IMG/VR virus record: IMGVR_UViG_3300046791_000370
Span: 1 to 59,183 of that record
DNA length: 59,183 nucleotides
From: a virus
Lineage: Duplodnaviria; Caudoviricetes
Reading direction: 5' to 3' (one strand)
The notes beneath the pieces are model-generated. The model made no database searches. It was not told the DNA's origin and was given only the letters and a program-made list of their open reading frames with translations. Shown here piece by piece: positions 10,458 through 10,572 of the stretch. Numbering within the stretch: the stretch's first letter is position 1; every line of letters begins with the position of its first letter. Position numbers and translations under genes: made by a program.

Positions 10458-10563
10458 GAGGAAGAGCCGGTTCAAGTCCGGCGTTGCGCAGGTGCTAGGG
10501 ACCCGCCTACGACCCCGCCGAGTCGGGGTCACCGCGCGATTGGTGTAACGGTCAGCACGCCTC
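10458..10563 (+). ncRNA. circularly permuted tRNA-like RNA no. 1
   Basis: GAGG-AAGA-[GCCGG TTCAAGT CCGGC]-GTTGCGC-A ... GCGCGAT-TG-[GTGT AACGGTCA GCAC]-G-CCTC; acceptor strands pair 7/7 with two G-U. Confidence 0.75.
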
Positions 10564-10572
10564 TCTTTATTT

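What the first reader, a model, noticed from the sequence alone, without database searches (positions are those of the whole stretch)
10458..10572. Second permuted tRNA whose acceptor stem is capped by a branched 43-nt insert
Seen: the apparently orphan 3' half (GAGG-AAGA-GCCGG TTCAAGT CCGGC-GTTGCGC-A, 10458-10490) pairs over 7 bp with the downstream orphan 5' half (GCGCGAT-TG-GTGT AACGGTCA GCAC-G-CCTC, 10534-10563), and CCTC pairs back with GAGG. The linker 10491-10533 is itself structured (GGT/ACC closing, TAGG/CCTA, GACCCCG/CGGGGTC), with an unpaired A at the discriminator position and a U-rich tract after the fold. Its sequence differs from element no. 2, so the same topology occurs twice without recent duplication. 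Inference: RNase P/RNase Z could excise the linker and give a two-piece tRNA with a chargeable end but no anticodon, reminiscent of two-piece tmRNA processing.
Basis: partly seen in the sequence, partly recalled or inferred. Interest (0 to 1): 0.85.

Follow-up and report, generated by a model that had tools for sequence, protein, structure and literature searches.

The report
Phage tRNA look-alike with capped acceptor
A soil phage carries a small RNA gene built like a tRNA whose parts are in rotated order, with no anticodon and a closed acceptor end; this design is already known from bacterial "Y RNAs", but here it has no Ro60 partner gene and no relatives that I could find.

Summary
At 10458-10563 (+) the sequence reads: closing helix, 4-nt variable loop, perfect T arm, 7-bp acceptor helix, unpaired A, 43-nt Y-shaped insert, U8-G9, D arm, G26, closing helix.

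The design is the known YrlA architecture, a circularly permuted tRNA mimic (Chen 2014).

Membership of the YrlA family is not shown:
- No Rfam hit for this element.
- No full Ro60 motif.
- No TROVE gene in this complete 59-kb phage.

The element lies in a 750-nt non-coding cassette with a real tRNA-Ile and three other tRNA look-alikes. These share T-arm and D-loop blocks, so they are paralogues.

I found no orthologue anywhere, so there is no covariation evidence, and the folding energy is unremarkable. Junctions of tandem same-amino-acid tRNA genes give the same pattern by descent, so a relic is the main rival.

Best reading (about 0.5): a functional, non-decoding tRNA mimic born from a tRNA dimer.

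This scan has noted Ro-less phage mimics of this kind before on other DNA.

The parts
10446..10457 (+). 5' strand of a possible lower helix (CC, bulged G, GGUCGA) plus 3 unpaired nt. Holds GUCGAC, a 5-of-6 match to the YrlA motif GNCGAA.
   Evidence: MFE pairs 10449-10454 with 10571-10576 and 10446-10447 with 10578-10579. Motif count.
10458..10461 (+). Closing helix, 5' strand (anticodon-stem position 40-43), GAGG.
10462..10465 (+). 4-nt variable loop AAGA. Its last base is a purine, not the pyrimidine conserved in YrlA.
   Evidence: conserved pyrimidine per 10.1101/312249
10466..10482 (+). T arm: 5/5 stem with G53-C61, loop UUCAAGU.
   Evidence: pair probability 0.97-0.99 in the 155-nt context
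10483..10489 (+). Acceptor helix, 3' strand (positions 66-72).
   Evidence: 7/7 pairs with 10534-10540, three of them (5-68, 6-67, 7-66) being G-U, A-U, U-G
10490..10490 (+). Unpaired A at the discriminator position. It is followed by GGU, not CCA.
10491..10533 (+). 43-nt Y-shaped insert that caps the acceptor helix: GGU/ACC closing stem, a 4-bp hairpin and a 7-bp hairpin.
   Evidence: Pair probabilities 0.87-1.0. The 7-bp hairpin is unique in the window; 0 of 100 shuffles have one.
10534..10540 (+). Acceptor helix, 5' strand (positions 1-7). The predicted RNase P site would be 10533/10534.
   Evidence: cleavage site is inference
10541..10542 (+). U8 G9
10543..10558 (+). D arm: GUGU / AACGGUCA / GCAC, with A14, G18 G19 and A21.
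   Evidence: The D-loop block is shared with 10152-10164, 10281-10292 and 10587-10597.
10559..10563 (+). G26 and the closing helix 3' strand CCUC.
10564..10579 (+). U-rich 3' strand of the lower helix. It overlaps the 5' acceptor strand of the next element, so the two helices exclude each other.
10143..10245 (+). Cassette member A: a tRNA-ordered look-alike with a long hairpin in place of the anticodon loop and an encoded CCA. It holds the only exact GNCGAA of the cassette (10171).
   Evidence: weak tmRNA hit of 17.9 bits
10247..10445 (+). Cassette segment B: no intact arm, but fragments resembling the D-loop block and the variable/T-stem start of this element.
10573..10626 (+). Cassette member E: short acceptor helix, D-loop-like block, perfect T arm, encoded CCA.
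10633..10708 (+). Genuine tRNA-Ile(GAU).
   Evidence: ARAGORN; Rfam tRNA 61 bits
10711..10790 (+). Cassette member D: second permuted tRNA look-alike with a 6-nt cap, followed by a U tract.
   Evidence: Rfam YrlA 21.3 bits, below the gathering score of 69; terminator-like site

Best explanation
The element (core 10458-10563, probably with flanks from about 10446 to 10573-10579) is a non-decoding tRNA mimic with the YrlA architecture. It is a tRNA body in rotated order. The acceptor end is closed, here by a 43-nt Y-shaped insert. The anticodon arm is replaced by a helix made from the RNA's own two ends.

It is one of four tRNA look-alikes that sit with a real tRNA-Ile in a 750-nt non-coding cassette of a complete 59-kb soil phage that has no Ro60 gene.

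Inferred mechanism:
- The cassette is made as one transcript that ends at the U tract after 10790.
- The host enzymes that must release tRNA-Ile (RNase P and 3' trimming) also set the ends of its neighbours.
- The element folds into the tRNA L-shape. It has a 12-bp acceptor/T stack and a D-loop/T-loop elbow.
- It engages a host protein that recognises the tRNA elbow or acceptor-T helix, as a decoy or cofactor.

Whether the cap stays on or is cut off by RNase P and a 3' enzyme, as in M. smegmatis YrlA, is open. I put removal at about one in three.

Its likely origin is the junction of two tandem copies of one tRNA-like unit, which is the dimeric-tRNA model proposed for YrlA.

Shown: the sequence anatomy, its rarity, the paralogy within the cassette, and the absence of TROVE. 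Inferred: transcription, folding in the cell, processing and the binding partner.
For: Anatomy
- The MFE and centroid of the core equal the cloverleaf.
- The tRNA core positions are in place: U8, A14, G18-G19, A21, G26, G53, the T-loop consensus and C61.
- The stacked acceptor and T stems are 7+5 bp.

Rarity
- The descriptor hits only this element and 10711-10786 in the window.
- It gives 0 hits in 164 loci totalling 1.36 Mb.
- 0 of 21 loci with the same loop words have more than 5/7 acceptor pairing.

Clustering
- All 5 perfect T arms on the plus strand of the window lie within 10219-10737.

Non-coding
- GC3 of the ORFs in the cassette is 0.59, against 0.77-0.93 in 8 real genes.

Contrast with decay
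- Segment B next door holds only broken tRNA-like fragments. This element keeps every helix intact.

Paralogues keep pairing
- The T-arm block is 18/21 identical to that of 10711-10786, and two of the three differences form a compensatory C-G to A-U change in the stem.
- The two acceptor helices differ at most positions, yet both pair.

Published design
- YrlA has the same order of arms and a closed acceptor stem. Stem length varies and is 'much longer' in some cyanobacteria. Its authors expect effectors that bind the elbow (PMC4201824 sections 5 and 8; 10.1101/312249 passages and section 9).

Another Ro-less case
- A capped permuted element sits in the tRNA cluster of a complete 402-kb phage (L178 2054-2130) that also lacks TROVE.
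Against: No orthologue, so no covariation
- blastn against 50,697 phage records matched only the tRNA-Ile.
- Five pattern scans of public collections gave nothing of this build.
- 50 whole records of DNA-polymerase relatives gave only tandem-tRNA artefacts with the YrlA model.
- 301 and 401 sampled bacterial genomes matched only in or beside the tRNA-Ile.
- The closest syntenic relative by the exoribonuclease gene (46% identity, L004) has no cassette.

Folding
- Folding energy is ordinary.
- The fold is not favoured in longer contexts, unlike tRNA-Ile.
- The lower helix competes with the acceptor helix of the next element.

Origin by descent
- Of the 4 descriptor places found elsewhere, 2 are junctions of tandem tRNA-Met/tRNA-Met and tRNA-Arg/tRNA-Arg genes. 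So this pattern can arise by descent alone.

Expression
- No expression data of any kind were obtained.
Confidence: 0.5

Rival explanations
1. Non-functional relic. The element is only the junction between two tandem copies of one tRNA-like unit in a decaying tRNA cluster. The 3' half of copy 1 and the 5' half of copy 2 pair because they descend from the same gene, and the outer halves have been lost.
For: - Tandem same-amino-acid tRNA genes give exactly this descriptor hit. Two of the 4 places found elsewhere are Met/Met and Arg/Arg junctions.
- The cassette is made of diverged copies: the D-loop block is shared by four members and the T-arm block by two.
- Segment B upstream is visibly decayed and holds a look-alike of the acceptor 5' strand and D loop.
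- A relative (L006) has 14 tRNA genes around the same exoribonuclease gene, so a large cluster may be ancestral.
- No orthologue and no thermodynamic signal were found.
Against: - No intact tRNA overlaps either half.
- Every helix and tertiary-contact position of the element is intact while B is broken.
- The 43-nt 'spacer' is itself tightly structured and stacks directly on the acceptor helix.
- The encoded CCA that all open ends of this phage carry is missing here.
- The flanks pair further.
- A 750-nt non-coding block is costly in a compact phage genome (inference).
Confidence: 0.25
2. A true Y RNA: it binds the host's Ro60 (Rsr) through its lower helix and tethers it to an effector, as YrlA does.
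For: - It has the same architecture as YrlA.
- A 5-of-6 match to GNCGAA lies at the end of the lower helix's 5' strand, where the Rfam YrlA consensus has it.
- Neighbour A has an exact GNCGAA in an internal loop of its long arm.
- Phage Ro60/Y-RNA pairs are known (PMC12135203, passages read).
Against: - There is no TROVE gene in the complete phage and none among 70 ORFs scanned with Pfam.
- The full motif GNCGAAN0-1G is absent from the cassette, and a one-mismatch GNCGAA occurs at 2.4% of positions by chance.
- Rfam YrlA gives no hit at E <= 10 even on 155 nt.
- The host is unknown.
- The lower helix clashes with the next element.
Confidence: 0.12
3. RNase P and RNase Z always remove the insert, CCA is added and the two-piece RNA is aminoacylated. 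It then acts in or on translation, in a tmRNA-like way or as an uncharged/charged tRNA signal.
For: - It has exactly 7 bp plus an unpaired A at the discriminator position.
- M. smegmatis YrlA is cut and receives CCA.
- A 7-codon frame ending Ala-Ala-stop lies upstream at 10362-10385.
Against: - The third acceptor pair is G-C, so the alanine identity pair of tmRNA is missing.
- ARAGORN finds no tmRNA.
- No CCA is encoded, unlike every open end in this phage.
- The leader is paired to the trailer.
- The short frame is unremarkable in 61% GC DNA and has no supporting structure.
- The YrlA authors consider aminoacylation unlikely to be general.
Confidence: 0.08
4. A permuted pre-tRNA gene of the red-alga type. 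The paired ends are cut and ligated, perhaps by the phage RNA ligase at 47081-48178, to make an anticodon loop, and the acceptor is then opened to give a working tRNA.
For: - The order of the halves is the same.
- The phage encodes an RNA ligase (PF09414 and PF21189).
- The possibility is raised for YrlA in 10.1101/312249 section 9.
Against: - The sequences next to the 4-bp closing helix (3 nt on the 5' side, a U-rich run on the 3' side) do not give a 5-bp stem with a 7-nt loop bearing U33 and a purine at 37 (read).
- No splicing endonuclease is known in bacteria.
- I found no bulge-helix-bulge.
Confidence: 0.03

Closest known systems
YrlA (Y RNA-like A; Rfam RF02553) of Salmonella, Mycobacterium smegmatis and Ro60-encoding phages
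   Same: - The order of parts is the same: closing helix, short variable loop, T arm, acceptor-like stem closed at its end, two nucleotides, D arm, closing helix.
- The tRNA tertiary-contact positions are kept.
- The M. smegmatis member has a 7-bp acceptor stem, is cut by RNase P and gets CCA.
   Different: - There is no rsr/TROVE gene in the genome.
- There is no Rfam hit.
- The Ro60 motif is matched at only 5 of 6 positions.
- The last base of the variable loop is a purine.
- The cap is a 43-nt three-way junction rather than a loop.
- It is one of four different mimics in one cassette.
Two-piece (permuted) tmRNA
   Same: The gene order puts the 3' acceptor strand and T arm before the 5' acceptor strand, with an intervening segment that is removed.
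   Different: There is no G3-U70 pair, no tag frame with supporting pseudoknots and no ARAGORN call. The D arm is canonical, and the downstream piece is only about 40 nt. The tmRNA features are recalled from general knowledge.
Circularly permuted tRNA genes of Cyanidioschyzon merolae and some archaea
   Same: The 3' half lies before the 5' half, the acceptor is initially closed and the ends are paired (as summarised in 10.1101/312249 section 9).
   Different: Those are matured into decoding tRNAs through a splicing endonuclease and ligase. Here no anticodon loop can be rebuilt and the host is bacterial.
Junctions of tandem identical tRNA genes (dimeric tRNA transcripts), the proposed ancestor of YrlA
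   Same: The T arm and 3' acceptor strand of one copy, a spacer, and the 5' acceptor strand and D arm of the next. Met/Met and Arg/Arg junctions in other phages satisfy my descriptor. The model is quoted.
   Different: Here the outer halves are gone, CCA is absent, the spacer is a structured junction and the flanks pair.

Membership tests
YrlA (RF02553) | Arm order T arm, closed acceptor-like stem, D arm, with the RNA's ends paired in the anticodon-stem position | tested here: met
YrlA (RF02553) | Conserved tRNA tertiary-contact nucleotides in the D and T loops, UA after the acceptor stem, and a pyrimidine at the last variable-loop position (10.1101/312249) | tested here: inconclusive
   The D-loop and T-loop positions are met. 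However, UG replaces UA and the last variable-loop base is A.
YrlA (RF02553) | Score at or above the Rfam gathering threshold (69 bits) | tested here: not met
   No hit at E <= 10 on 1.1 kb or on 155 nt. The neighbour 10710-10790 scores 21.3 bits, no better than tandem-tRNA artefacts at 17.5-23.6 bits.
YrlA (RF02553) | Ro60-binding motif GNCGAAN0-1G in the 5' strand of the terminal stem | tested here: not met
   GUCGAC at 10450 matches 5 of 6. The full motif is absent from the cassette. One-mismatch matches occur at 2.4% of positions.
YrlA (RF02553) | Encoded within about 4 kb of, and on the same strand as, an rsr (TROVE) gene | tested here: not met
   Six-frame TROVE search of the complete record gave 0 matches, while the control rings in 2 of 14 genomes. 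70 ORFs scanned with Pfam gave none.
YrlA (RF02553) | Bound by Ro60/Rsr | not testable with these tools
   Needs a binding assay, and the host is unknown.
tRNA (RF00005) | Anticodon arm with a 7-nt loop, open acceptor end, and recognition by tRNA finders | tested here: not met
   No call by ARAGORN or the Rfam tRNA model. There is no anticodon loop.
Two-piece tmRNA | G3-U70 pair, a tag reading frame, and an ARAGORN or Rfam tmRNA call | tested here: not met
   The third pair is G-C. There is no tmRNA call here. The only weak tmRNA hit lies at 10164-10240, in another element.
RNase P / CCA-processed mimic (M. smegmatis YrlA type) | 7-bp acceptor stem stacked on a 5-bp T stem | tested here: met
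RNase P / CCA-processed mimic (M. smegmatis YrlA type) | Cleavage at the +1 position and CCA addition in vivo | not testable with these tools
   No reads or contigs from an RNA library were available for this stretch.

The most novel reading that the evidence does not exclude
The cassette is a purpose-built set of four differently shaped tRNA decoys around one real tRNA. All four present the same elbow to a host tRNA-binding factor, and the phage works without any Ro60. This element is the member that RNase P and a 3' enzyme open into a two-piece, CCA-bearing, anticodon-less tRNA. At the same time it is a living intermediate of how Y-RNA-type mimics are born from tRNA dimers.
Probability: 0.12. 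Interest if true: 0.7.

Novelty: new variant of a known kind. Interest (0 to 1): 0.42.

Why it matters
tRNA-shaped Y RNAs are known only as partners of Ro60, and what their tRNA-like domain binds is still unknown. A phage that keeps several such mimics without any Ro60 gene would show that the tRNA-like module has a job of its own, and it would give a compact system to fish for its partner. This element keeps true acceptor strands and a spacer, so it also looks like the tRNA-dimer intermediate that has been proposed for the origin of these RNAs. The value is limited because it rests on one genome with no relatives and no expression data.

Tried and rejected
Orthologue searches (none found)
- blastn of 10100-10800 against the phage collection: 60 records matched, all over the tRNA-Ile only.
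- Neighbour-gene routes:
  - The 205-aa upstream protein has no relative in IMG/VR or in the 5.8-billion-protein set, where it matches only itself.
  - Exoribonuclease relatives, 4 + 80 loci, and DNA-polymerase relatives, 72 loci (the single-protein try found none), hold no permuted element.
- The YrlA model on 4 + 50 whole records of relatives gave only tandem-tRNA or tRNA artefacts.
- Pattern scans:
  - 21 loci, none with more than 5/7 acceptor pairing.
  - 2 loci, both unrelated.
  - 2 loci with T-arm elements of another build.
  - 0 loci.
- Genome collection:
  - A tail protein found nothing.
  - The polymerase alignment found 6 distant MAG loci at 24-35% identity.
  - DNA search of 301 and 401 sampled genomes matched only in or beside the tRNA-Ile. 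The two samples overlap heavily.

Sequencing runs
- 2 DNA runs were listed and no RNA holder was listed.
- The second run holds only identical short pieces, and none of the listed pieces covers this element.
- So I have no variants, no RNA ends and no evidence about expression.

Partner protein
- No TROVE in the record.
- 70 ORFs were scanned with Pfam and none matched TROVE, vWA or a family named DUF7873.
- Four large orphan proteins have no PDB relative by sequence.
- The upstream 205-aa protein looks like a phage DUF669-type protein by the Atlas, which is a lead only.

Host
- Not identified.
- Portal and helicase hits to cultured phages are 22-26% identical.
- The DNA polymerase's nearest cultured relatives are Thermus phages at about 25%.
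- GTA-type tail domains and a tRNA-His with A73 hint at Alphaproteobacteria. That link is recalled, not tested.

Other attempts
- A covariance model of the two permuted elements was not built, because MAFFT misaligned their 5' halves. I used my own descriptor instead.
- Promoter scan: 0 sites.
- Literature: paper searches listed no paper on a Ro-less phage tRNA mimic of this build. I read only the papers cited here, and supplements were closed. The supplementary tables and Supplemental Fig. S1 of PMC4201824 list phage YrlAs and longer acceptor stems that I could not see.

Full report
What the window is.
- The window is a complete virus record of 59,183 bp with 64% G+C, from IMG/VR.
- It carries replication genes around the finding:
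  - a PD-(D/E)XK nuclease
  - endonuclease VII
  - a DEAD-type helicase
  - a 205-aa orphan that the protein Atlas places near phage DUF669-type proteins
  - an Rv2179c-like 3'-5' exoribonuclease
  - a family A DNA polymerase
- Between the 205-aa gene (end 10072) and a 63-aa gene (start 10820) lies a 747-nt stretch. Its ORFs lack the strong third-position G+C of real genes: 0.59 against 0.77-0.93 in 8 genes.

The observation.
- I wrote a descriptor for a permuted tRNA. It requires:
  - a perfect 5-bp T stem with G53-C61 and a canonical T loop
  - the next 7 nt pairing at least 6/7 with a 7-mer 3-110 nt downstream
  - two nucleotides
  - a D arm with GG in a loop that begins with A
  - zero or one nucleotide
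  - a closing helix of at least 4 bp with the bases 3-6 nt upstream of the T arm
- On both strands of the window it finds two places only. One is this element (7/7 acceptor, 4/4 closing). The other is 10711-10786.
- It finds nothing in 92 loci around relatives of the exoribonuclease (about 0.51 Mb) or in 72 loci around relatives of the polymerase (0.85 Mb).
- Twenty-one IMG/VR loci have the same T-loop and D-loop words at the same spacing. Their would-be acceptor strands pair at 0-5 of 7 positions.
- So the complementarity is far beyond what co-occurring tRNA pieces give.

Limits of the observation.
- The folding energy is ordinary: z = -1.05 for the core and -0.58 with flanks.
- With flanks, the energy model prefers another register for the D stem and closing helix. 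In 261-nt or 747-nt contexts the acceptor helix has a probability of only 0.06-0.15.
- The acceptor helix of the real tRNA-Ile keeps 0.7-0.98 in the same contexts.
- The flanks can extend the closing helix (10449-10454 with 10571-10576). That 3' strand is also the 5' acceptor strand of the next element, so both cannot form at once.

The neighbourhood.
- All five perfect T arms on the plus strand of the window lie within 10219-10737.
- The five units that carry them are:
  - a tRNA-ordered body with a long hairpin in place of the anticodon loop (10143-10245)
  - this element
  - a short acceptor/T-arm unit (10573-10626)
  - a genuine tRNA-Ile (10633-10708; ARAGORN, and Rfam at 61 bits)
  - a second permuted body with a 6-nt cap (10711-10786), followed by a U tract
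- The members are paralogues:
  - This element's T-arm block is 18/21 identical to that of 10711-10786. Two of the three differences form a compensatory stem change, and 0 of 200 shuffles score as well.
  - Its D-loop block recurs in three other places.
- The 199 nt upstream (10247-10445) hold only broken tRNA-like fragments.
- All four open acceptor ends in the phage encode CCA. This element has A-GGU instead.

What is known.
- The arm order and closed acceptor stem are those of YrlA, the tRNA-like Y RNA bound by bacterial Ro60 (Rsr). It has been found next to rsr in 254 bacterial species and 22 phages (PMC4201824: abstract, passages, and sections 5 and 8 read).
- M. smegmatis YrlA has a 7-bp acceptor stem. 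It is cut by RNase P RNA in vitro, and in vivo it exists as 82-nt and 65-nt halves with CA added.
- The crystal-structure preprint (10.1101/312249: passages and section 9 read) makes several relevant points:
  - Acceptor-stem length varies.
  - Most members stay closed.
  - The elbow is the likely effector site.
  - YrlA may have arisen from dimeric tRNA transcripts, with the T arm from the first tRNA, the D arm from the second, and the acceptor stem from the spacer.
- Phage Ro60/Y-RNA pairs are also documented for Thermus phage phiLo (PMC12135203, passages read).

Membership.
- This element fails the tests for being a YrlA family member:
  - Rfam gives no YrlA hit at E <= 10, even on 155 nt.
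  - The neighbour's 21.3 bits is no better than the 17.5-23.6 bits that tandem tRNA genes reach.
  - The Ro60 motif is matched only 5 of 6, which happens at 2.4% of positions.
  - The complete genome has no TROVE gene, and none of 70 ORFs shows TROVE or vWA.
- So it works like YrlA in design, but I do not file it as a member.
- tmRNA features also fail: the third acceptor pair is G-C and there is no ARAGORN call.

Relatives.
- I found no orthologue.
- The nearest syntenic relative I could read has no cassette. A more distant one has 14 tRNA genes around the same exoribonuclease gene.
- The second sequencing run holds only identical fragments.

The main rival.
- In loci rich in tRNA genes my descriptor found four places.
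  - Two are junctions of tandem tRNA-Met/tRNA-Met and tRNA-Arg/tRNA-Arg genes.
  - One is a genuine capped permuted element in a complete 402-kb phage that also lacks TROVE.
  - One is ambiguous.
- Tandem copies of one tRNA therefore produce the pattern by descent. That fits the dimeric-tRNA origin model, and it also allows a plain relic.
- Five things speak against a relic:
  - Every helix is intact beside a decayed neighbour.
  - The structured insert stacks on the acceptor helix.
  - CCA has been lost.
  - The flanks pair.
  - No intact tRNA overlaps either half.

Verdict.
- I read the element as a functional, non-decoding tRNA mimic of the YrlA design in a Ro-less phage (0.5). It probably arose from a tRNA dimer.
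- Removal of the cap by RNase P is possible but unproven; I put it at about one in three.
- A relic stands at 0.25 and a host-Ro60 Y RNA at 0.12.
- The kind is known and the variant is new. The evidence is one genome.
- Earlier notes of this scan describe similar Ro-less phage mimics on other DNA. I did not test those.

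Noticed in passing
window 10143-10245: A tRNA-ordered look-alike whose anticodon loop is replaced by a long GAAA-capped hairpin. The only exact GNCGAA of the cassette (10171) sits in an internal loop of that arm, the layout described for Ro60 handles. It ends in an encoded CCA, but its acceptor strands pair poorly.
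   Followed up: partly
window 10573-10626: A short unit with a 5-bp acceptor helix, a D-loop-like block, a perfect T arm and CCA, 6 nt before tRNA-Ile. Its 5' strand is also the 3' strand of the finding's lower helix.
   Followed up: partly
window 10247-10445: About 200 nt of broken tRNA-like fragments, including a hairpin resembling the tRNA-Ile anticodon arm with one base missing and copies of the finding's D-loop block and variable/T-stem start. It looks like a decayed cassette unit.
   Followed up: partly
window 11008-11574 and L006 3001-3528: The Rv2179c-like 3'-5' exoribonuclease gene sits directly beside the tRNA or tRNA-mimic cluster both here and in a distant relative with 14 tRNA genes. 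It may have a role in tRNA 3' end trimming.
   Followed up: no
L203 100-1000 (minus strand): A 68% G+C phage contig has three repeated elements. Two have a perfect T arm, and the third one's T stem has a mismatch and was not picked up by my T-arm scan. Each also has a shared downstream word and lies about 40 nt before a ribosome-binding site and start codon of a small gene. ARAGORN calls no tRNA there. They may be tRNA-like punctuation of an operon.
   Followed up: partly
L204 3660-3780: A 15-bp terminal helix encloses one hairpin and a T arm whose 21-nt block is identical to that of window 10718-10738. It is not called as a tRNA.
   Followed up: partly
L178 2054-2130 (minus strand): A genuine permuted, loop-capped tRNA look-alike inside the 32-tRNA cluster of a complete 402-kb phage that has no TROVE match.
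   Followed up: partly
window 46524-46598 and 46604-48178: A tRNA-His with an A discriminator and encoded CCA is followed by a DUF2203 protein and an RNA ligase (PF09414 with a PHA02142 OB domain). This is a possible RNA-repair module, 36 kb from the cassette.
   Followed up: partly
window 6994-7464 and 57000-57329: Two separate endonuclease VII genes (Pfam E 9e-21 and 6e-20).
   Followed up: no
window 33763-37969 and 55188-56132: Tail proteins with gene-transfer-agent-type domains (Phage_BR0599, Rcc01698_C, GTA-gp10; the last is weak). This is a hint at a proteobacterial host. The Polyangiaceae MAG that carries a distant polymerase relative has a TROVE gene (L205).
   Followed up: no
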